Positions 36,634-64,000 of a stretch of DNA of 64,000 bases are shown here, in pieces. Made by a program: the position numbers and the translations under genes. A model generated the notes under the pieces. The model was not told where the DNA came from, did not search any database, and saw only the letters and a program-made list of their open reading frames with translations. This DNA is from Candidatus Moraniibacteriota bacterium. Lineage in GTDB: Bacteria > Patescibacteriota > Minisyncoccia > Moranbacterales > DUUL01. Within the stretch, counting starts at the first letter, position 1; every line of letters begins with the position of its first letter. The DNA lies in assembly GCA_027008775.1 (NCBI GenBank), contig JALVDV010000010.1, positions 96,529 through 160,528 of the forward strand, written 5' to 3'.

Positions 36634-36649
36634 AAATTTCTCTTAGCCT

Positions 36650-38404
36650 CTACACCACCCCTTTTTTCTTCATAAAGGCCAAGATACCAACGGTGATTAA
36701 GGTAGAGAAGAGAACCAAGAGAACAATGTTGGTGGCCAAACCGGTCTTGGGAGCGGAGCGACGGTAACCAAAGTCAGCCTTGGTGTGTTCGTCTTTTTCT
36801 TTGAGTTTAACAGAGGTTTGGTTGTCCAGTTTACCATCGGGGTCGTAGGTTGGAATTAGATTCTCAACATCTTTAACTACCACCCGATAATGTCCGGAGC
36901 AAAGATTCTTAATCTTGTAACGACCATGTTTGTCAGTGGTGTCACAGTATTTCTTGTTACCGCGAAAAGCGCAGACTTTAACATCAGAAATTCCTTCTTC
37001 AATATCTTCTTGAATACCGTTACCATTGGTGTCATACCAAATATAGTTGCCAATGGAAGATTGACAATCTTCTTCCTCTTCTTTTCTTTCTTCTTTGAGT
37101 TTGACGGTAACCTGATCAGAGTCGGTAATGGTTTTGGAACCAAGCTTGGCGGTAACCGTTACTTTGTTGGTGGTATCTTGGTTGATGACCACTGACTTGG
37201 TACAACTCATAGCTTCGCCAACATTCAAAGAAGTCTGGGGACAGGTGATGGTTCCCAATTGATCATCTTGAACTTGAATGTTGGTTAGTTTAGTGTCGCC
37301 GGTGTTAGTGATACGATAAGTGTAAGTGACTGTTTCTCCTTTTTTTACTTCAGTGGCGGAAGCGCTTTTTTCAACTCTAACGCCGGTGTTTTCTTTTTGA
37401 CAAACACTACTGCAACCATCGCCACTGACAGTGTTGCCGTCATCGCATTCTTCGGAGTCTTGTTTAAGGCCGTCTCCGCATTTACCTCCTTGAACAACTA
37501 CGTTTTTACAGTCACTGGAACAATAGGTACAAGAACTGTTGTAAGCCGGGGTACAAGTTTGGCCGTTGTTAGCGCCTTCATCGCATTGTTCGCCACTTTC
37601 TTTGGTGCCATTACCACAGTTGGGAGAAGGAGAAGTTTCTTTTTGACAAACACTACTACAACCATCGCCACTGACAGTGTTGCCGTCATCGCATTCTTCT
37701 CCGTCTTCCAAAACTCCGTTACCACATTGGGGAGAAGGAGTTTCATTAACTTTCTCCAAAAGCATACAAACGGGCTCAAAGCCGTGTTTGAACTTTACTC
37801 CCTTGGGTCCGGCGTGGACCACTTTGATTTGGCGCAAAGGAGAAGTTATTTGCAGAGCAGAGGAACCATAGTTAACAGCAGTGATTTTACCGGCTTCTTC
37901 CACGCCATCGGGCAGGTCTTCCGTTGTGCCGGAACGAACTCCGTTAAAGTCTATGTAGTACTGTTCGTGAGATTCATCAGCCGGGTTGGCTTGACTGCGA
38001 CCGACATAGCTGTCAAAGGATTCCAGATAAACGTTGTACTTGCCGGCGGGGATGGAGATTCCAGAAACAGTCTTTTCCCTGGGGAAATTGTGACCGTTTA
38101 AAACTCCGCCGTCGGAAACCATAATGTCACCATTGTACTTGATAAGGATATCCCCTTGTTTCTTGGTTTGCAGATGACAAACTCCGGAACAGTGATTGGC
38201 CAGATAAGTGGTGGTTTGGCGAAGGTCTTGGTTGAGAGAAGCAATCTTTTGGTTTTGCGACTGAAGGAGAACAGCGCCGAAAGCCAACAAAACAATCAGC
38301 AATAAAAAGATTCCTCCCACCAAGAGAGGTTTACGCCAAGACCATTGGTAACGAGAAGAACGGCGAGATCTTCTTGGACCACTGCTTTTTTTTCTTTGCA
38401 CCAT
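36650..38404 (-). CDS. Surface protein with Myxococcus-type Cys-rich repeats, a DUF11 domain, an SdrD-B-like domain and a C-terminal sortase-type sorting signal (copy A)
   Basis: An N-terminal TM/signal segment is followed by two CDDGNTVSGDGCSSVC repeats and then an SdrD-B-like domain. The C-terminus carries a sortase-type signal: SAPKTGLAT, a hydrophobic stretch, then KKKGVV. Confidence 0.7.
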   Translation of the reverse strand: MVQRKKSSGPRRSRRSSRYQWSWRKPLLVGGIFLLLIVLLAFGAVLLQSQNQKIASLNQDLRQTTTYLANHCSGVCHLQTKKQGDILIKYNGDIMVSDGGVLNGHNFPREKTVSGISIPAGKYNVYLESFDSYVGRSQANPADESHEQYYIDFNGVRSGTTEDLPDGVEEAGKITAVNYGSSALQITSPLRQIKVVHAGPKGVKFKHGFEPVCMLLEKVNETPSPQCGNGVLEDGEECDDGNTVSGDGCSSVCQKETSPSPNCGNGTKESGEQCDEGANNGQTCTPAYNSSCTYCSSDCKNVVVQGGKCGDGLKQDSEECDDGNTVSGDGCSSVCQKENTGVRVEKSASATEVKKGETVTYTYRITNTGDTKLTNIQVQDDQLGTITCPQTSLNVGEAMSCTKSVVINQDTTNKVTVTAKLGSKTITDSDQVTVKLKEERKEEEEDCQSSIGNYIWYDTNGNGIQEDIEEGISDVKVCAFRGNKKYCDTTDKHGRYKIKNLCSGHYRVVVKDVENLIPTYDPDGKLDNQTSVKLKEKDEHTKADFGYRRSAPKTGLATNIVLLVLFSTLITVGILAFMKKKGVV

Positions 38405-38490
38405 GCTATTTGTTTTTATTTTTTAAGGAAAAGCAAAAAGACAATTCTTTCTTTGCTTAGATTTTAACATAAAAGGGAATTGGGGGCAAT
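36654..38490 (-). repeat. 1.84-kb direct repeat, copy A (gene plus about 90 bp of promoter region)
   Basis: It is near-identical to 58303..60140 in the same orientation. Confidence 0.95.
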
Positions 38491-38568
38491 GGATTCTGGA
38501 AATTTCCAGGGAATATCTTTCTATCAACAAATACACCGAATGCTTACTATCTCCAGGTATAGTTATAC

Positions 38569-43593: not shown

Positions 43594-44622
43594 TTATTTA
43601 TTTTCCAATTCAGCCACTTTAGCCTGCAAATCACGGATTTCCTTTTGTTGCTCTTTGACTGCTTCAATCAAAACTCCAACCAGACCGTCATAGTCAACTG
43701 TTTTGTAGCCATTGGGGCTCTCATTAACCAAGCTGGGGAAGTCTTTTTCAATTTCTTGAGCGATTACTCCGATATTTTTCTGGTCATTGCTTTTCAATTT
43801 ATACTCCACTCCGCGAATGTTCTCCAATCTCTGTAAAGCATTTTCCACTGTTTTGATGTCTTTTTTTAATCTAACATCAGAGCCCCGACGGAAATTGGCT
43901 GCCCAGACATCAGCAAATTGTCCTTTACCTTTACCAACTACCAAGCCGGCATTTCTGCTTCTGGATCCATCCACTCTAATCCCGATGGATCCGGCCAGGC
44001 TGGGAGCGTTGGGAGAAACATCAAAAGCGTAAATCCAGGGACCCCGGGTGTTATCAACTTTTTGATATTCACTGTTGTTAGTGACAGTGCCAATTCTAAA
44101 TTTGCCCTGAGAGACGAAAGTTTTACCAAAAATGTTAGCGTACTGGTTGTGACCGCGACCAACTACCAAAGCGCTATCCGGTCCTTGATTGCCAACGCGG
44201 ATACCGATGCTTCCGTTCATATTGCTCACGCCCGGCACTTGATTGATGGCATAAATCCAGGGTCCTCTCATCGCATCTATTCGGTTGTACCCGGCGGTGC
44301 TGTTAACCATTCCTATTTGCAGATACGGACCGGAGGCCTGGGCTCCTTGAGCATACAATCTGACAGCGCCGTTGGCAAAAATATTACCATTAGCCAACAA
44401 GGCTGTGCTTCGGTTACCGGCAACGTTAACGGCCAAACCGCCGTCTTTAGCTTGCCAAATTGGGCCGGTGTTTAAAGGCGCTTTCAAGTTACTGGCCGGG
44501 GGATTGGAAGATGGCTCCGTCCAATTGGTTGATTGGGCACTGGTTGATTGGACATAAACCAAGGCTGCCAAAGCAACAAGTCCCGTCGCAACCACCATTT
44601 TGAATTTACTATTCATTTTCAT
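43594..44622 (-). CDS. Secreted tail-fibre-like protein with a C-terminal peptidase S74 intramolecular-chaperone domain
   Basis: It has a signal peptide and two internal roughly 100-aa repeats. The C-terminus reads SDVRLKKDI…GVEYK…IGVIAQEIEKDFPSLV…VDYDGLVGVLIEAVKEQQKEIRDL, which matches the auto-cleaving chaperone of phage tail spikes. Confidence 0.7.
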   Translation of the reverse strand: MKMNSKFKMVVATGLVALAALVYVQSTSAQSTNWTEPSSNPPASNLKAPLNTGPIWQAKDGGLAVNVAGNRSTALLANGNIFANGAVRLYAQGAQASGPYLQIGMVNSTAGYNRIDAMRGPWIYAINQVPGVSNMNGSIGIRVGNQGPDSALVVGRGHNQYANIFGKTFVSQGKFRIGTVTNNSEYQKVDNTRGPWIYAFDVSPNAPSLAGSIGIRVDGSRSRNAGLVVGKGKGQFADVWAANFRRGSDVRLKKDIKTVENALQRLENIRGVEYKLKSNDQKNIGVIAQEIEKDFPSLVNESPNGYKTVDYDGLVGVLIEAVKEQQKEIRDLQAKVAELENK

Positions 44623-58236: not shown

Positions 58237-58298
58237 TGATTTTTTTAATTTTTTATTTGTTTAGATAAATAAGGCACCAAACAAAATCTTCTTACCCC

Positions 58299-60053
58299 CT
58301 AAACCACCCCTTTTTTCTTCATAAAGGCCAAGATACCAACGGTGATTAAGGTAGAGAAGAGAACCAAGAGAACAATGTTGGTGGCCAAACCGGTCTTGGG
58401 AGCGGAGCGACGGTAACCAAAGTCAGCCTTGGTGTGTTCGTCTTTTTCTTTGAGTTTAACAGAGGTTTGGTTGTCCAGTTTACCATCGGGGTCGTAGGTT
58501 GGAATTAGATTCTCAACATCTTTAACTACCACCCGATAATGTCCGGAGCAAAGATTCTTAATCTTGTAACGACCATGTTTGTCAGTGGTGTCACAGTATT
58601 TCTTGTTACCGCGAAAAGCGCAGACTTTAACATCAGAAATTCCTTCTTCAATATCTTCTTGAATACCGTTACCATTGGTGTCATACCAAATATAGTTGCC
58701 AATGGAAGATTGACAATCTTCTTCCTCTTCTTTTCTTTCTTCTTTGAGTTTGACGGTAACCTGATCAGAGTCGGTAATGGTTTTGGAACCAAGCTTGGCG
58801 GTAACCGTTACTTTGTTGGTGGTATCTTGGTTGATGACCACTGACTTGGTACAACTCATAGCTTCGCCAACATTCAAAGAAGTCTGGGGACAGGTGATGG
58901 TTCCCAATTGATCATCTTGAACTTGAATGTTGGTTAGTTTAGTGTCGCCGGTGTTAGTGATACGATAAGTGTAAGTGACTGTTTCTCCTTTTTTTACTTC
59001 AGTGGCGGAAGCGCTTTTTTCAACTCTAACGCCGGTGTTTTCTTTTTGACAAACACTACTGCAACCATCGCCACTGACAGTGTTGCCGTCATCGCATTCT
59101 TCGGAGTCTTGTTTAAGGCCGTCTCCGCATTTACCTCCTTGAACAACTACGTTTTTACAGTCACTGGAACAATAGGTACAAGAACTGTTGTAAGCCGGGG
59201 TACAAGTTTGGCCGTTGTTAGCGCCTTCATCGCATTGTTCGCCACTTTCTTTGGTGCCATTACCACAGTTGGGAGAAGGAGAAGTTTCTTTTTGACAAAC
59301 ACTACTACAACCATCGCCACTGACAGTGTTGCCGTCATCGCATTCTTCTCCGTCTTCCAAAACTCCGTTACCACATTGGGGAGAAGGAGTTTCATTAACT
59401 TTCTCCAAAAGCATACAAACGGGCTCAAAGCCGTGTTTGAACTTTACTCCCTTGGGTCCGGCGTGGACCACTTTGATTTGGCGCAAAGGAGAAGTTATTT
59501 GCAGAGCAGAGGAACCATAGTTAACAGCAGTGATTTTACCGGCTTCTTCCACGCCATCGGGCAGGTCTTCCGTTGTGCCGGAACGAACTCCGTTAAAGTC
59601 TATGTAGTACTGTTCGTGAGATTCATCAGCCGGGTTGGCTTGACTGCGACCGACATAGCTGTCAAAGGATTCCAGATAAACGTTGTACTTGCCGGCGGGG
59701 ATGGAGATTCCAGAAACAGTCTTTTCCCTGGGGAAATTGTGACCGTTTAAAACTCCGCCGTCGGAAACCATAATGTCACCATTGTACTTGATAAGGATAT
59801 CCCCTTGTTTCTTGGTTTGCAGATGACAAACTCCGGAACAGTGATTGGCCAGATAAGTGGTGGTTTGGCGAAGGTTTTGGTTGAGAGAAGCAATCTTCTG
59901 GTTTTGCGACTGAAGGAGAACAGCGCCGAAAGCCAACAAAACAATCAGTAATAAAAAGATTCCTCCCACCAAGAGAGGCTTACGCCAAGACCATTGGTAA
60001 CGAGAAGAACGGCGAGATCTTCTTGGACCACTGCTTTTTTTTCTTTGCACCAT
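58299..60053 (-). CDS. Surface protein with Cys-rich repeats, DUF11, SdrD-B-like domain and C-terminal sorting signal (copy B)
   Basis: Starting from MVQRKK it is 584 aa and about 99% identical to copy A, with one D/N difference seen. Confidence 0.7.
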   Translation of the reverse strand: MVQRKKSSGPRRSRRSSRYQWSWRKPLLVGGIFLLLIVLLAFGAVLLQSQNQKIASLNQNLRQTTTYLANHCSGVCHLQTKKQGDILIKYNGDIMVSDGGVLNGHNFPREKTVSGISIPAGKYNVYLESFDSYVGRSQANPADESHEQYYIDFNGVRSGTTEDLPDGVEEAGKITAVNYGSSALQITSPLRQIKVVHAGPKGVKFKHGFEPVCMLLEKVNETPSPQCGNGVLEDGEECDDGNTVSGDGCSSVCQKETSPSPNCGNGTKESGEQCDEGANNGQTCTPAYNSSCTYCSSDCKNVVVQGGKCGDGLKQDSEECDDGNTVSGDGCSSVCQKENTGVRVEKSASATEVKKGETVTYTYRITNTGDTKLTNIQVQDDQLGTITCPQTSLNVGEAMSCTKSVVINQDTTNKVTVTAKLGSKTITDSDQVTVKLKEERKEEEEDCQSSIGNYIWYDTNGNGIQEDIEEGISDVKVCAFRGNKKYCDTTDKHGRYKIKNLCSGHYRVVVKDVENLIPTYDPDGKLDNQTSVKLKEKDEHTKADFGYRRSAPKTGLATNIVLLVLFSTLITVGILAFMKKKGVV

Positions 60054-60140
60054 GCTATTTGTTTTTATTTTTTTAAGGAAAAGCAAAAAGACAATTATTT
60101 CTTCGCTTAGATTGTAACACAAAAGGGAATTGGGGGCAAT
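58303..60140 (-). repeat. 1.84-kb direct repeat, copy B
   Basis: It is near-identical to 36654..38490 with one homopolymer indel. The upstream non-coding part is more diverged than the coding part. Confidence 0.95.
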
Positions 60141-60387
60141 TGATCGCATCAAAAAGCATCATTGATAAATCATTGGAAATGACGCCAAGATTCGGATAAA
60201 ATATGCTATTTTATTTTTTATTTTGCGCGTTCTTGGTCTGAGATATTCGTTTTATATTTTACAAATATTTACGGTTATTTTATTTTTTCTGAAACACAAA
60301 CAAATGCTCATGCATAATCAGAAGAAAGTTATATTTCTTGGACCGCTCCACCCAAAACCCAGTCGCTTGGCAATATCAGTTTCGTAA

Positions 60388-60825
60388 TTATACTTCTTCG
60401 CTTTGAATTGTTTTTAATTTTTTCCAATTAATTTCTTCCACATTTTTGTTTTTGTCAACAAAAAAGATATACAAGCACAATCTTCTTAAAACATTAAATG
60501 GAGTTTTCTTGATAACCATATCGCGAAAATATGTAGAAAATGCCAGCCCGTATTTATAGCCATGATAACAATCACGATATCTTTCATTTCTGTTAGAATA
60601 CATTCGCGTGATAATTTGCCCCATCGCTGAATTAAAACTGCTACTCCTACTGCCAGAAGGACTTTGTACTTTACTAGACGGATCACCTTTTACTTCAATA
60701 AGCCAATATCTTGGATATTTATCATTTTTAACTTTTATATCCACGCCCTGCTCCCACAAATTCGCCGCTTTTAATGATGTGCCCCATCCTTTTTCTTTTA
60801 AATATTCACACCGCTTCTTGCACAA
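60388..60825 (-). CDS. Small PD-(D/E)xK nuclease-fold protein (putative)
   Basis: VDIKVKND…WLIEVKG fits a D…E-x-K catalytic motif. Confidence 0.35.
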   Translation of the reverse strand: MCKKRCEYLKEKGWGTSLKAANLWEQGVDIKVKNDKYPRYWLIEVKGDPSSKVQSPSGSRSSSFNSAMGQIITRMYSNRNERYRDCYHGYKYGLAFSTYFRDMVIKKTPFNVLRRLCLYIFFVDKNKNVEEINWKKLKTIQSEEV

Positions 60826-60886
60826 AATCTTCCGTTAAAATTGTTCGTTTTTGGTTTGATTGTGATAGCGTAATAATATTTTATTA

Positions 60887-61861
60887 CTATTTTTCTGAAC
60901 TAATTTTTATATATTTTCCAAATTTATCAATTTTTACATCACGATTTTTTTTATAATTACATTTTTTAAAATATCTTATCATCCTTTTTAAATAATTCAC
61001 ATCTTTGGCAACGAAACAATTATAACTATTTTCTACTATAAGTTGATTGATACTTTTAATCGCGTTTTTACCTTCTTTTTTATAAATTTCTATAGGTGAT
61101 TTTATTTTTGGTATTATTACAAGATGCAAATCGGGTCTCAAAGGAAAATGTACAACACCATCCAAAGATGAAAGTCCTACACTTCTATTGTTTTTAGAAT
61201 AAACAAAACAAGGATTATCGGATGTTATCATCGACATTTTCTTGGGAGGCACTATAAAAATCCATTGATTTTCAAATAACTTTTTTGCTATTTCATTAAG
61301 TTTAAATAACCACTTTGAATGCCCCGTGTTTGTTAATTTAATAACATAGCCATCATTTTGAATTGCCTCAAATAATTGTTTTTTTGCTTCTATTTTAGGT
61401 AAAGCATTTATCTTTTTTATCGCTTTTTTCTCGTCTTCATTTATCGCCTGTTTTTCATCTGGTATAATAATTTTATCTACTGACGAAAACTTATCTCTAA
61501 GTCCTATCTTTATAATGGTATCTATAACACTATTTATTTCACTTCTGTGCTTTGGAGTTCTTATGTATTGAAGAGCAACATAAAAAGCAATTGCACTTCG
61601 CTCGTATCCATTTAATTGCTTGCCATAATTAATATCTTTAATAGTTTTAATACCTTTTGCATCAATATATGCAGTAAATTTTTCAGGTAAATATTTATCA
61701 TTAACATCATCCAATATATTAAAATCTTTTATAGAAAAACCTGGCCAACCTGCACCCCTTCTTTTAATTTTGTCTTCCTCTGTGCTATAAATATTTAATT
61801 GATTATCATCACAATACCATTGTTTTAAATATTCCTTTTGTACAATATGATGTTTCGGCAT
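60887..61861 (-). CDS. DUF4238-family protein
   Basis: The N-terminal HHIVQKEYLKQW matches the DUF4238 H(Y/H)(V/I)PQxYL(K/R)xF motif. The start was taken at the internal ATG (MPKHH). Confidence 0.55.
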   Translation of the reverse strand: MPKHHIVQKEYLKQWYCDDNQLNIYSTEEDKIKRRGAGWPGFSIKDFNILDDVNDKYLPEKFTAYIDAKGIKTIKDINYGKQLNGYERSAIAFYVALQYIRTPKHRSEINSVIDTIIKIGLRDKFSSVDKIIIPDEKQAINEDEKKAIKKINALPKIEAKKQLFEAIQNDGYVIKLTNTGHSKWLFKLNEIAKKLFENQWIFIVPPKKMSMITSDNPCFVYSKNNRSVGLSSLDGVVHFPLRPDLHLVIIPKIKSPIEIYKKEGKNAIKSINQLIVENSYNCFVAKDVNYLKRMIRYFKKCNYKKNRDVKIDKFGKYIKISSEK

Positions 61862-61966
61862 AATATTTTCATCATCAAACAAACAACCCCTGCATCAAAC
61901 CTTTTTCCCAGGTTTGGACTTTGGTTATTTGATCTTGTTTTAATTGTATCATTTTATCAATAGAAT

Positions 61967-62956
61967 TCAGGAGGTCTGCGATTTTTTGTTGTTAGAGTGT
62001 TGAAATTTTATATCAATTTCTGCTGCCATATCTCTCAATTCTGAAAAAGAATTATCCAACGATTCTACATAAACATCAAGATTAAATGGATCAACATCTT
62101 TATCCATTGACACCATCTTTTCCATTCTTTTCAATAATTCGTCTATCTTTTTTATTTCTTCAACAATTCCTGGAATAGCTATTCCATGCTTATTTAATGT
62201 TTTGATGTTATACCTGTCCTTAACGCCTTTTTTAAAATCCTCATATATTTTACACAACGTTTCAAAAGAAGTTTTAGAGATATGACGATTGTCCTCAAAT
62301 GACCATAATTTTTGTATTAAATAGCCAGATTGTGCAAGCTTTTCTACTAAACTGTCATATTTAAACTTTTCTTTGTGTTTATTTTCAATTTCATTTAGCT
62401 TTTTTATGATTCTATCCATTTCTATACTTAATACACTAGATTGTTTATTTATTATTTCTATAATATTTATCTTTTTATTAACAAAATTATTATGCGACCA
62501 TACTTGATATTCTAAAATATTTGTATTTTCAGCTGTACTTAATGATGTATATGTAATATTTCCATCTTTATAAGAAATGTCTTTACTTCTTTTTTTCTTT
62601 GTTTCCGATGGATGTCCAATTGTTTCATTTCTTATATTTCGTATTTTTTTAAGTTCCGGAAAACTTTCAAATTTTGGCACCTTGATATCAATAGCCCTTT
62701 CCAAATGCACTATTGAATCCTGTTGTACAATTAGTGCTTGTAATATTCCATATATAGATAATTTTGTATGATATTTTTGCTCTATATATTCTTCTATTGC
62801 TGATTGAGCATCTTGAATATTATCAAAAGCAGACCATAATTTGCTCCAATTACCTTTATCTTTCTTATTCCAAGCTCTTTGCTTACAACAAAAAGATGTG
62901 TAAATAATCTTTTTTAATTTATCAATTTTTGTTCTTAAATTATAGTTATCATTCAT
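61967..62956 (-). CDS. Hypothetical protein with a possible HEPN-like Rx5H motif
   Basis: IRNIRNETIGHPSE contains R-x5-H. There are no other recognisable domains. Confidence 0.35.
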   Translation of the reverse strand: MNDNYNLRTKIDKLKKIIYTSFCCKQRAWNKKDKGNWSKLWSAFDNIQDAQSAIEEYIEQKYHTKLSIYGILQALIVQQDSIVHLERAIDIKVPKFESFPELKKIRNIRNETIGHPSETKKKRSKDISYKDGNITYTSLSTAENTNILEYQVWSHNNFVNKKINIIEIINKQSSVLSIEMDRIIKKLNEIENKHKEKFKYDSLVEKLAQSGYLIQKLWSFEDNRHISKTSFETLCKIYEDFKKGVKDRYNIKTLNKHGIAIPGIVEEIKKIDELLKRMEKMVSMDKDVDPFNLDVYVESLDNSFSELRDMAAEIDIKFQHSNNKKSQTS

Positions 62957-63035
62957 AGTATTTTTTTACACAAACAACCCCTGCATCAGTCCTCTTTTCC
63001 ACTCCTGCATTTTTTGGATTTGGGCGTCAACTGAC

Positions 63036-63506
63036 TCAATGCTTACTTTTCACCCCTTCAAACTCTACACCCACAAAACCCTCCCAGCCCAAAACTATTT
63101 CTTCATTCTTGTACTGTTGGGCGATTTTCTTTATGGCGTCATTTTTGCTTTTTGCCTTGACATCAACAACTCTCTGCAATGTTTCCGTGATTTCTATTTT
63201 GTATTTCTTGGTAGATTTCAAAACAACATCGTCCGCATCCTTATTCTTAATTTTTTCCAAAAATCCTTTAGCCATAAGTTGCAATGTTTCTTCGTCTAAG
63301 TTTTGTAAATTTTCCCATAATTCAAATGTTTGATAAGTGTCATCATTTACAATGTTTCGCCATTCTTTCGGTTCAATTTCCATAAAATCATTATCTTCTG
63401 AAAATTCTTTACACATTATTGAAAACGGAAAATAAAAATCTTTATGCTCATCTAAATATCTTAGAATTTTAATAGCCAAATTCCTATTGATTTTCATAGC
63501 ACACAA
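63036..63506 (-). CDS. Hypothetical protein
   Basis: An ORF is present but no motif was recognised. Confidence 0.35.
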   Translation of the reverse strand: MCAMKINRNLAIKILRYLDEHKDFYFPFSIMCKEFSEDNDFMEIEPKEWRNIVNDDTYQTFELWENLQNLDEETLQLMAKGFLEKIKNKDADDVVLKSTKKYKIEITETLQRVVDVKAKSKNDAIKKIAQQYKNEEIVLGWEGFVGVEFEGVKSKH

Positions 63507-63550
63507 AGTTAAATTTTATGCTTTCATTATTGATCACTATGAAAAACAGA

Positions 63551-64000
63551 TCAAGCCAATTTGTATTTACCTCCGCCCAGAAATTCCAAATAATTTTTAT
63601 CTCGCAATAATTGCAACTGTTGTCTGATTTTATCCTTAATATGTTTGTTGTTTGGATATTTTTTGCTTAAAGCATTTTCAAAATTATACAATTCTCGCAA
63701 AGTAAATTCCGATTTTCCCAAACTATCAATACACTTCATTATGTCCAAAATCCAACCGCGCAAATTTGACTTTTTTTCTTCCCGTAGAAACAAAGTTTTC
63801 CGCCAATTTTTCAAAACCGTTTCTTTCGGTTTTTCTCGGCGGTTTTTGACATAAAAAATTTTTCCACTTTCCGGAATACCCGACAGATCAATACTGCACA
63901 TTATATAGTTTGGTCTACCGGGAATACCGTTTTTTCTAGGAATAATAATCTCCGGCACAAAAAAATGTTTCGGAATAACAATAAAATTGGTAACTTCATA
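63551..64000 (-). CDS. DpnI-like (methyl-directed, GmATC-type) restriction endonuclease, 5'-partial with the N-terminus beyond the window end
   Basis: The reading frame stays open to the window edge. The C-terminal winged helix …CSIDLSGIPESGKIF…RGWILDIMKCID…EFTL…KIRQQLQLLRDKNYLEFLGGGKYK matches the DpnI/Dam-replacing family as I remember it. Confidence 0.55.
   Translation of the reverse strand, partial: YEVTNFIVIPKHFFVPEIIIPRKNGIPGRPNYIMCSIDLSGIPESGKIFYVKNRREKPKETVLKNWRKTLFLREEKKSNLRGWILDIMKCIDSLGKSEFTLRELYNFENALSKKYPNNKHIKDKIRQQLQLLRDKNYLEFLGGGKYKLA

What the first reader, a model, noticed from the sequence alone, without database searches (positions are those of the whole stretch)
60141..64000. 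AT-rich defence-like island starting exactly at the end of repeat copy B
From about 60.2 kb the GC content drops visibly to long A/T runs. The genes here are a small PD-(D/E)xK protein, a DUF4238 protein (a family recurrent in defence islands), a protein with an Rx5H motif (possibly HEPN-like), a hypothetical protein, and a DpnI-like methyl-directed restriction endonuclease running off the window. All are on the minus strand and there is no methyltransferase, which is consistent with a type IIM enzyme. The boundary coincides with the duplicated 1.84-kb repeat, linking island insertion and duplication. The neighbouring DUF4238 and Rx5H genes are also a candidate two-gene abortive-infection pair.
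Basis: partly seen in the sequence, partly recalled or inferred. Interest (0 to 1): 0.7.

Follow-up and report, generated by a model that had tools for sequence, protein, structure and literature searches.

The report
Swappable DpnI defence-gene cassette slot
The AT-rich end of the window is a real 4.2-kb block of anti-phage genes in a tiny-genome (CPR) bacterium; it is built around a DpnI enzyme that cuts methylated GATC, and close relatives appear to carry a GATC methylase at the same spot, much like the swappable DpnI/DpnII cassettes of pneumococcus.

Summary
GC falls from about 0.41 to 0.30 at 60145, where the 1862-bp repeat (99.2% identical) ends. Five minus-strand genes follow.

They are:
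- an intact DpnI orthologue (E 6e-82 to PDB 4esj);
- a 329-aa protein with an invariant Rx5H motif;
- DUF4238, a published single-gene defence;
- a small PD-(D/E)xK-like gene, frameshifted here.

A 100%-identical contig extends the window. Two sister contigs share the far flank at 95.4% identity and fix the island's far edge at window-equivalent 64322. Beyond that nucleotide they carry a DpnM-like GATC methylase cassette instead. This looks like alternative, mutually incompatible cassettes in one slot, as at the pneumococcal dpn locus.

The Rx5H gene is flanked by two fossil hsdS 3' ends. Its relatives usually sit inside type I R-M operons.

None of 66 non-redundant Rx5H-family loci has a DUF4238 neighbour, so the two-gene abortive-infection pair is not supported. 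The repeat copies differ only at their edges, which indicates gene conversion between older paralogues, so no causal link to island insertion is shown.

Verdict: a genuine defence-gene hotspot and a new member of known kinds. Moderately interesting.

The parts
58284..60144 (-). Repeat copy B: a surface-protein gene (SdrD_B, DUF4215, DUF11 domains) plus about 90 bp upstream and 15 bp downstream. It forms the left flank of the island.
   Evidence: Self-BLAST 36634-38494 vs 58284-60144, 1862 bp, 99.2%. Pfam domains. All 15 differences lie at the two edges.
60145..60387 (.). AT-rich non-coding spacer between the repeat end and the first island gene. The true left edge of the cassette lies somewhere in here.
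   Evidence: GC 0.31. No similarity to copy A's flank. No Rfam hit.
60388..60880 (-). Small PD-(D/E)xK-like gene ('p145'), damaged. The conserved N-terminal 'QKRTILTEDFVQEAV' lies in another reading frame (60880-60809) with no start codon. The rest is the ORF 60388-60825.
60887..61861 (-). DUF4238 gene, 324 aa from the ATG at 61861; a stand-alone anti-phage defence family.
   Evidence: Pfam PF14022 E 8e-24, covering 1-277 of 281 model positions. PADLOC DUF4238-Pers E 3e-9. Published single-gene defence against T7 (PMC9122126).
61878..62003 (-). Fossil 3' end of a type I R-M specificity gene (hsdS): 'QQKIADLLNSIDKMIQLKQDQITKVQTWEKGLMQGLFV*'. It overlaps the end of the Rx5H gene and runs up to the DUF4238 start.
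   Evidence: tblastn with L003 HsdS residues 386-427, 74% identity, E 3e-12. DNA alignment A5.
61967..62956 (-). 329-aa Rx5H protein (IRNIRNETIGHP), HEPN-like. Its family is usually embedded in type I R-M operons.
   Evidence: Invariant R109, G114, H115, P116 in A1 and A4. 5 of 26 close members weakly hit HEPN_AbiU2. 2099 representative clusters in the family. Type I R-M neighbours.
62969..63022 (-). Second, shorter fossil hsdS 3' end ('QIQKMQEWKRGLMQGLFV*'), just upstream of the Rx5H gene. It is a direct repeat of 61879-61931.
   Evidence: the repeat finder family D1, 53 nt, 74%. tblastn, 18 aa, 67%, E 0.02.
63036..63506 (-). dpnD-like gene (156 aa; 153 aa from the ATG at 63497).
   Evidence: Pfam DpnD-PcfM PF14207 E 3.8e-15. 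It lies immediately downstream of DpnI, as in the pneumococcal dpnC-dpnD cassette (PMC4471560).
63551..64000 (-). DpnI (dpnC-like) gene, C-terminal 149 codons. The gene continues past the window to window-equivalent 64312 (ATG) or 64330 (GTG). The island ends at window-equivalent 64322.
   Evidence: DpnI_C E 1.3e-32 and DpnI E 2.7e-20. Full-length 259 aa from L001: PDB 4esj E 5.8e-82, with D53/E64/K66 and four Cys conserved. Far boundary from L103/L104.

Best explanation
The end of the window is one allele of a variable defence-gene slot in the chromosome of a Patescibacteria (CPR) bacterium. The nearest named relatives are Candidatus Moraniibacteriota. The slot lies between an ankyrin-repeat gene, just beyond the window, and a duplicated surface-protein gene. 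In this genome it holds a 4.18-kb, 29-30% GC mosaic of five co-directional genes.

1. An intact dpnC/dpnD-type cassette. DpnI is a methyl-directed type IIM endonuclease. It cuts incoming DNA carrying Gm6ATC and needs no methylase, because the host leaves GATC unmethylated. DpnD, of unknown role, follows it as in pneumococcus.
2. A 329-aa protein with an invariant Rx5H motif, probably a HEPN-like RNase acting as a suicide or back-up effector. It was captured from a type I R-M operon and still carries two hsdS 3'-end fossils on its flanks.
3. DUF4238, a stand-alone defence gene.
4. A frameshifted remnant of a small PD-(D/E)xK nuclease-like gene. Elsewhere this gene trails type III Res-like helicases, OLD-family proteins or Shedu genes.

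Sister strains appear to carry a DpnM-like GATC methylase cassette starting at exactly the same nucleotide. Alleles would therefore be exchanged by homologous recombination in the shared flanks, giving a population split into 'methylate GATC' and 'cut methylated GATC' types, as at the pneumococcal dpn locus.

Shown: gene identities, fossils, boundaries and the alternative cassette sharing one flank. Inferred: enzymatic activities, RNase function, the exchange mechanism and the assumption that the sister contigs are the same locus.
For: - GC drop and repeat boundary.
- Independent 100%-identical contigs span the island; both reach copy B, and L001 also reaches the far side.
- DpnI is full length against 4esj, E 5.8e-82, with catalytic D/E/K and the Zn cysteines conserved. 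PADLOC mREase_II E 5.7e-116. DpnD PF14207 E 3.8e-15.
- No methylase in the window.
- Sister contigs L103 and L104, from two other samples, share L001:228-1480 at 95.4% identity. Identity stops after 'AAAGGAGGTGATCAAT'.
- Their next gene matches M1.DpnII (2dpm) over its full length, E 1.5e-78, against 1e-34 for E. coli Dam; the DPPY motif is present. A T5orf172 / PDC-S57 gene follows.
- hsdS fossils at 62003-61878 (E 3e-12) and 63022-62969.
- The Rx5H gene is 84% nucleotide-identical to the copy inside a Moraniibacteriota type I R-M operon.
- 16 of 66 non-redundant family loci, and 8 of 17 with at least 2 kb on both sides, have co-oriented hsdM/S/R within 6 kb. HsdS, N6_Mtase and HsdR are the commonest neighbour families.
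- DUF4238: Pfam and PADLOC hits and published activity.
- p145 family contexts and the frameshift.
Against: - Only one flank of the alternative allele is visible; L103 ends 41 bp after its third gene. Replacement of the whole 4.18-kb block is therefore not proven.
- The ankyrin gene belongs to a multicopy family, with 78-83% paralogues in one other genome. The 95% contigs could be a paralogous locus, not the same one.
- The sister cassette shows no DpnII endonuclease or DpnA in its visible 2.7 kb.
- No sister genome with conserved synteny on the surface-protein side was found.
- No activity has been tested.
Confidence: 0.68

Rival explanations
1. One reading: DUF4238 and the neighbouring Rx5H protein form an obligate two-gene abortive-infection system.
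For: The genes are adjacent, co-directional and about 100 bp apart. Both families occur in defence contexts.
Against: phmmer with the window's DUF4238 finds no hit in any of the 86 other Rx5H-family loci fetched (66 non-redundant). DUF4238 is not among the 25 commonest Pfam families of their neighbours. A DUF4238 gene on a Vibrio plasmid has no Rx5H neighbour. A distant Rx5H homologue on a Marinobacter plasmid has no annotated DUF4238 neighbour. DUF4238 defends alone in E. coli (PMC9122126). A fossil hsdS end lies between the two genes, which shows they were juxtaposed by rearrangement.
Confidence: 0.05
2. Island insertion and duplication of the surface-protein gene were one event, so the repeat end at 60144 is the insertion scar.
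For: Homology between copies A and B ends exactly where the low-GC DNA starts.
Against: All 15 differences between the copies lie in the first 20 bp and the last roughly 270 bp. The central 1573 bp are identical. This is the signature of gene conversion between older copies, so the homology edge has decayed. The repeat is simply one gene with its promoter region; a promoter-like site lies at 60139-60111. Any upstream DNA would differ from that point. There are no target-site duplications, integrase or transposase.
Confidence: 0.1
3. The block is part of an integrated mobile element (prophage, ICE or transposon) and not a recombination-exchanged chromosomal slot.
For: Low GC. Defence genes often ride on mobile elements. 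DUF4238 was first validated from a P2 prophage hotspot.
Against: There is no integrase, transposase, tRNA or flanking repeat in the 4.18 kb or the 1.8 kb beyond it. PHROG hits are only weak, to families of unknown function. The p145 family has 1 hit in 2.9 million viral contigs. The alternative cassette begins at the same nucleotide with a shared ribosome-binding region, which fits flank-mediated replacement.
Confidence: 0.1
4. The sister DpnM-type contigs are a paralogous locus in the same kind of genome, not an allele. The island would then be a fixed feature next to one of several ankyrin genes.
For: Ankyrin paralogues at 78-83% identity occur twice in one genome, each followed by different genes.
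Against: The identity here is 95.4% and includes 206 bp of non-coding DNA up to a sharp breakpoint. An active GATC methylase and DpnI in one cell would be self-destructive (established DpnI biology). The two types were found in different samples.
Confidence: 0.2

Closest known systems
Streptococcus pneumoniae dpn locus (alternative DpnI cassette dpnC-dpnD, DpnII cassette dpnM-dpnA-dpnB, and DpnIII)
   Same: The DpnI orthologue matches over its full length (E 5.8e-82) and is followed directly by a DpnD-domain gene, with no methylase. A DpnM orthologue (E 1.5e-78 to 2dpm) occupies the same junction in sister contigs. The two states are incompatible in one cell. (PMC4471560.)
   Different: The host is a CPR bacterium, not a streptococcus. 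The DpnI allele carries three extra defence-related genes. The methylase allele shows no DpnA or DpnII endonuclease in the visible part; instead it has a 350-aa membrane protein and a T5orf172 / PDC-S57 gene. Only one shared flank has been seen.
Abortive-infection / HEPN genes embedded in type I R-M operons (for example PrrC, RloC, AbiU2-type HEPN proteins; from established literature, own knowledge)
   Same: The Rx5H family sits co-oriented between hsdM/hsdS and hsdR in many loci. It has a strictly conserved Rx5H motif. A few members weakly match HEPN_AbiU2.
   Different: No significant match to any HEPN Pfam model (17.5 bits against a cut-off of 26.8), nor to any PADLOC model. It has no ATPase domain, unlike PrrC and RloC. 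The fold search is uninformative. In the window it is detached from any R-M system.
DUF4238 single-gene defence (P2 prophage hotspot, Rousset et al. 2022)
   Same: Pfam DUF4238 over the whole model, plus a match to the PADLOC DUF4238-Pers model.
   Different: It is distant in sequence (about 21-27% identity to plasmid examples), chromosomal in a CPR genome, and untested.
XisH-like and restriction-endonuclease-fold small proteins (PD-(D/E)xK)
   Different: No Pfam, NCBIfam or PADLOC match. The model confidence is low (pLDDT 61). The copy in the window is frameshifted.

Membership tests
DpnI (type IIM methyl-directed restriction endonuclease) | Full-length homology to R.DpnI, including the N-terminal PD-(D/E)xK domain and the C-terminal winged-helix domain | tested here: met
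   L001:1472-2251 against PDB 4esj: E 5.8e-82, residues 6-257 aligned to 3-255. Pfam DpnI and DpnI_C. PADLOC mREase_II E 5.7e-116.
DpnI (type IIM methyl-directed restriction endonuclease) | Catalytic D53, E64, K66 and the four Zn-binding cysteines conserved | tested here: met
   In the alignment, 'RPVADFYCQNCREEYELKSKK' aligns with 'RPVADFYCNHCSEEFELKSKK', and 'CPNC' is conserved. Residue numbers come from my own knowledge of the 4esj paper.
DpnI (type IIM methyl-directed restriction endonuclease) | No GATC (Dam/DpnM) methylase in the same genome | tested here: inconclusive
   None in the 64-kb window or the 1.8-kb extension. The rest of the genome could not be read.
DpnI (type IIM methyl-directed restriction endonuclease) | Cleaves only Gm6ATC | not testable with these tools
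   Needs an enzyme assay.
Pneumococcal-type alternative dpn cassettes | dpnD directly downstream of dpnC, same strand | tested here: met
   DpnD-PcfM domain gene at 63036-63506, 44 bp after the DpnI stop.
Pneumococcal-type alternative dpn cassettes | Different cassettes between the same two flanks in related strains | tested here: inconclusive
   The Ank-side flank is shared at 95.4% up to a sharp breakpoint. The other flank cannot be seen because L103 and L104 end inside the cassette.
Pneumococcal-type alternative dpn cassettes | The alternative cassette encodes DpnM, DpnA and the DpnII endonuclease | tested here: inconclusive
   A DpnM orthologue is present. The next two genes are a 350-aa membrane protein with no hits and a T5orf172 gene. 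No DpnA or DpnII is seen in the visible 2.7 kb.
HEPN superfamily | Conserved Rx4-6H motif | tested here: met
   R109-x5-H115 is invariant in 26 close members (A1) and in 62 members drawn from a family of 2099 clusters (A4).
HEPN superfamily | Significant profile match to a HEPN family | tested here: not met
   HEPN_AbiU2 scores 17.5 bits against a cut-off of 26.8. It is hit by 5 of 26 close members, and in the 62-member wider sample only by the window protein itself. No PADLOC or NCBIfam hit.
HEPN superfamily | Four-helix up-down bundle carrying the motif, matching solved HEPN structures | tested here: inconclusive
DUF4238 defence family | Pfam PF14022 above the gathering score over the whole domain | tested here: met
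   85 bits against a cut-off of 27, model positions 1-277 of 281. PADLOC DUF4238-Pers E 3.1e-9.
DUF4238 defence family | Confers phage resistance as a single gene | not testable with these tools
   Shown for an E. coli P2-hotspot member only (PMC9122126).
PD-(D/E)xK nuclease superfamily (145-aa gene) | D...(D/E)xK motif on the core strands | tested here: met
   D29, E44 and K46 are invariant in 35 sequences. The predicted strands 28-32 and 42-45 carry them.
PD-(D/E)xK nuclease superfamily (145-aa gene) | Restriction-endonuclease-like fold | tested here: inconclusive
PD-(D/E)xK nuclease superfamily (145-aa gene) | Intact reading frame | tested here: not met
   The conserved N-terminal helix is encoded in another frame, and no ATG, GTG or TTG precedes it.
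Two-gene abortive-infection pair (DUF4238 + Rx5H) | Conserved co-occurrence of the two genes across genomes | tested here: not met
   No DUF4238 homologue in 66 non-redundant Rx5H-family loci. Plasmid examples show each gene alone.
Classical genomic island / integrated mobile element | Integrase or transposase, tRNA target, flanking direct repeats | tested here: not met
   No such genes in or next to the block. The nearest tRNA is 50 kb away. The only notable repeat inside is the hsdS fossil pair.

The most novel reading that the evidence does not exclude
A natural population of CPR (Patescibacteria) bacteria maintains a pneumococcus-like balanced polymorphism at one chromosomal slot: 'methylate GATC' (DpnM-type) against 'cut methylated GATC' (DpnI-type). 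In addition, the co-resident 329-aa Rx5H protein represents a large family (at least 2000 sequence clusters) of type-I-R-M-embedded effectors that is absent from Pfam, NCBIfam and PADLOC. It could be a new back-up or abortive module that fires when type I restriction is disabled.
Probability: 0.35. Interest if true: 0.6.

Novelty: new member of a known kind. Interest (0 to 1): 0.45.

Why it matters
Very little is known about how the tiny-genome, epibiotic CPR bacteria defend themselves.

If the allelic reading holds, the classic pneumococcal arrangement recurs here. Opposite GATC-methylation strategies would be held as exchangeable cassettes in one slot, in a phylum far removed from streptococci. 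That points to a general population-level strategy against phages, whose DNA carries the methylation state of the previous host.

The locus also shows how such slots turn over. It contains debris of a type I system (two hsdS ends) and of a nuclease gene that elsewhere trails type III-like systems.

Finally, it flags a widespread, unnamed Rx5H family that usually sits inside type I R-M operons. That family is a good candidate for experimental characterisation.

Tried and rejected
- Profile searches of the Rx5H family and the p145 family against PDB sequences found nothing.
- The genome-contig scan with the adjacent 1080-aa protein found only 30-35% relatives with no synteny, and not the source genome. 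Presence or absence on the surface-protein side could therefore not be tested.
- The metagenome scan did not return the source contig.
- The ankyrin protein could not be looked up directly. This was solved through its homologues.
- The 336-aa gene inside the type I operon of L101 is not an Rx5H homologue.
- The tail of L103 has no match to the window's left flank.
- Promoter and terminator scans are uninformative in this AT-rich DNA: 30 found against 21 expected.
- No Rfam family was found.
- PHROG hits are weak and of unknown function.
- Rejected: assembly artefact, because two further assemblies agree at 100%.
- Rejected: prophage or ICE, because there is no recombinase.

Full report
**1. 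Observation**

The window is chromosomal DNA with housekeeping genes: tmRNA, tRNAs, SecA, TIM, ParB, TruB and a leucyl aminopeptidase. GC is 0.38-0.47 in every 2-kb bin up to 60 kb, then 0.299 and 0.296 in the last two bins. At 500-bp resolution the fall happens between 59750 and 60250.

A self-BLAST confirms the repeat. Positions 36634-38494 equal 58284-60144, 1862 bp at 99.2% identity. The repeat is one surface-protein gene (SdrD_B, DUF4215, DUF11 domains) with about 90 bp upstream and 15 bp downstream. Copy B ends at 60144, and the sequences of the two copies diverge completely from the next base.

Five minus-strand ORFs follow. Two other public assemblies are 100% identical to the window here: L001 covers 59735-64000 and L002 covers 60069-63369. 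The junction with copy B is therefore not an assembly artefact. L001 also extends 1801 bp beyond the window. It gives the complete DpnI gene, then an ankyrin-repeat gene with an N-terminal membrane helix.

**2. The genes**

*DpnI.* The 259-aa protein aligns over its whole length with pneumococcal DpnI (4esj, E 5.8e-82). The catalytic D...ExK residues and the four cysteines are conserved. PADLOC calls it a type II methyl-directed restriction enzyme (E 5.7e-116).

*The 156-aa 'hypothetical' gene.* It carries the DpnD/PcfM domain (E 3.8e-15). The pair reproduces the pneumococcal dpnC-dpnD cassette, in which dpnD is still of unknown function (PMC4471560).

*DUF4238.* The match covers the whole Pfam model (E 8e-24). 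It also matches PADLOC's DUF4238-Pers model. A DUF4238 protein from a P2 prophage hotspot protects E. coli against T7 as a single gene (PMC9122126).

*Methylases.* No DNA methylase was found in the island, the extension or the rest of the window.

**3. The 329-aa Rx5H protein**

It has only 44 word-index homologues in the 5.8-billion-protein set. The closest named one, at 79% identity, is from Candidatus Moraniibacteriota. A full profile search finds 2099 representative clusters at E <= 0.001, nearly all about 310 aa long.

R109, G114, H115 and P116 ('RNxxIGHP'), with G70, Q73 and D315, are invariant even across members sharing 20-25% identity.

The only Pfam family hit by more than one member is HEPN_AbiU2. 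It is hit by 5 of 26 close members, always below threshold, and by none of the 61 other members of the wider sample. The AlphaFold model is confident (pLDDT 82.7) and mostly helical, but structure searches return only generic bundles. I therefore call it HEPN-like by motif and context, not a proven HEPN protein.

Context is informative. In the Moraniibacteriota genome CP175956.1 and in a 466-kb JGI contig the gene lies between hsdS and hsdR. Among 122 neighbours in 66 non-redundant loci, the commonest families are HsdS (14), N6_Mtase (10) and HsdR (7). Sixteen of the 66 loci, and 8 of the 17 with at least 2 kb on both sides, have co-oriented type I genes within 6 kb.

**4. Fossils in the window**

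The DNA just downstream of the Rx5H gene (62003-61878) encodes 'QQKIADLLNSIDKMIQLKQDQITKVQTWEKGLMQGLFV*'. This is 74% identical to the C-terminus of the Moraniibacteriota HsdS (E 3e-12). A shorter copy of the same motif lies just upstream (63022-62969).

The Rx5H gene itself is 84% nucleotide-identical to the Moraniibacteriota copy. It was therefore lifted out of a type I R-M operon, and its unusual C-terminal tail is read-through into the fossil. DUF4238 starts at the ATG at 61861, right after the fossil's stop codon.

**5. The 145-aa gene**

Its family (190 hits at E <= 0.01, the 120 best listed, 55-86% identity) includes members named as Patescibacteria lineages. It has no Pfam, NCBIfam or PADLOC match. 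D29, E44 and K46 are invariant.

Homologues occur in these positions:
- 3-4 bp after type III Res-like helicases;
- after OLD-family proteins;
- after or near Shedu SduA genes.

Only 1 hit was found in 2.9 million viral contigs.

In the window the gene is damaged. The conserved N-terminal 'QKRTILTEDFVQEAV' is in a different frame and has no start codon. It is best read as another remnant.

**6. The far boundary and the alternative cassette**

Homologues of the ankyrin protein led to two contigs from other samples: L103 (GCA_027024345.1) and L104. They share L001:228-1480 at 95.4% nucleotide identity. That stretch is the ankyrin gene plus 206 bp of intergenic DNA.

Identity ends sharply after 'CAAAGGAGGTGATCAAT'. 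That position is L001:1480, or window-equivalent 64322. The island is thus 60145 to about 64322, 4.18 kb, and contains exactly the five genes.

Beyond the breakpoint the sister contigs carry three genes:
- a D12-class methylase that matches M1.DpnII (DpnM, 2dpm) over its full length (E 1.5e-78, against 1e-34 for E. coli Dam), with the DPPY motif;
- a 350-aa membrane protein with no hits;
- a T5orf172 gene matching the PADLOC candidate PDC-S57.

A GATC methylase and DpnI cannot coexist in one cell. The most economical reading is therefore two alternative cassettes in one slot, as at the pneumococcal dpn locus, where DpnI, DpnII and DpnIII are syntenic (PMC4471560).

Caveats:
- Only one flank of the alternative allele is visible.
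- The ankyrin gene family is multicopy in at least one genome.
- No DpnII endonuclease is seen.

GATC is under-represented in the window, with 92 sites observed against 176 expected. This is compatible with a history of GATC-directed restriction in the lineage.

**7. What is not supported**

*The two-gene pair.* phmmer with the window's DUF4238 finds no homologue in any other Rx5H-family locus, and plasmid examples show each gene alone.

*The link between island insertion and the duplication.* All 15 differences between the copies lie in the first 20 bp and the last roughly 270 bp, while 1573 central bp are identical. This indicates gene conversion between older paralogues. The coincidence of the repeat end with the GC drop says only that the duplicated unit is the gene plus its promoter region.

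*A mobile element.* No integrase, transposase, tRNA or att-like repeat marks the block, and no Rfam family is present.

**8. Verdict**

This is a genuine defence-gene hotspot allele. It is a mosaic of:
- an intact DpnI-DpnD cassette;
- an Rx5H gene derived from a type I R-M operon;
- a stand-alone DUF4238 gene;
- a decayed nuclease-like gene.

A DpnM-type methylase cassette is the probable alternative allele in sister strains. It is a new member of known kinds. Its interest is raised by the parallel with the pneumococcal cassette system in a CPR bacterium, and by the large uncharacterised Rx5H family.

Noticed in passing
window 36634-38494 and 58284-60144: The two repeat copies are 100% identical over the central 1573 bp (36654-38226). 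All 15 differences are in the first 20 bp and the last ~270 bp. This is a gene-conversion pattern between paralogous surface-protein genes.
   Followed up: yes
window 1-60144: GATC is strongly under-represented: 92 sites observed against 176 expected from a Markov estimate. This is compatible with past GATC-directed restriction in the lineage.
   Followed up: partly
L001:1460-1495 (window-equivalent ~64307-64342): The shared flank supplies a strong Shine-Dalgarno sequence (AAAGGAGG). At the junction with the DpnI cassette a 4-codon mini-ORF is formed (ATG AAG AGC GTA TGA), whose stop overlaps the DpnI ATG (ATGA). A GATC site sits at the breakpoint. Significance unknown.
   Followed up: no
L103:3-710 and L104:3-1337, compared with L001:1-228: Upstream of the ankyrin gene the sister contigs encode a lipase-like C-terminal domain (DUF6792/Lipase_3) that is missing from the window's lineage. 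In another genome ankyrin paralogues occur in tandem (L101). This looks like a polymorphic toxin with ankyrin immunity genes.
   Followed up: partly
L101:5574-15525: In GCA_015493225.1 an 83%-identical ankyrin paralogue is followed by DUF805 and a type I R-M operon with embedded Fic, SLFN/AlbA_2 and an unknown 336-aa gene. Ankyrin genes may mark defence hotspots in these genomes.
   Followed up: partly
L090:1-9229: The HTH / EcoRI-like methylase / GmrSD-HNH / SduA / p145 cassette is bracketed by inverted copies of the same three genes (209 aa, 180 aa, HTH). It has different outer flanks in L091-L093. It may be an invertible or mobile unit.
   Followed up: no
L107:3813-6471 and L094:2409-5456: p145 homologues start 3-4 bp after type III Res-like helicases of 727-862 aa in which Pfam detects no nuclease domain. 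They may be the split-off nuclease module of those enzymes.
   Followed up: partly
window 43594-44622: A chromosomal 342-aa protein carries a Peptidase_S74 domain (endosialidase chaperone, typical of phage tail fibres), E 2e-15.
   Followed up: no
L110:6905-7855 (Marinobacter plasmid pMAQU01): A distant Rx5H-family homologue (30% identity) is annotated as hypothetical. It lies near a SIR2-family gene and IS elements.
   Followed up: no
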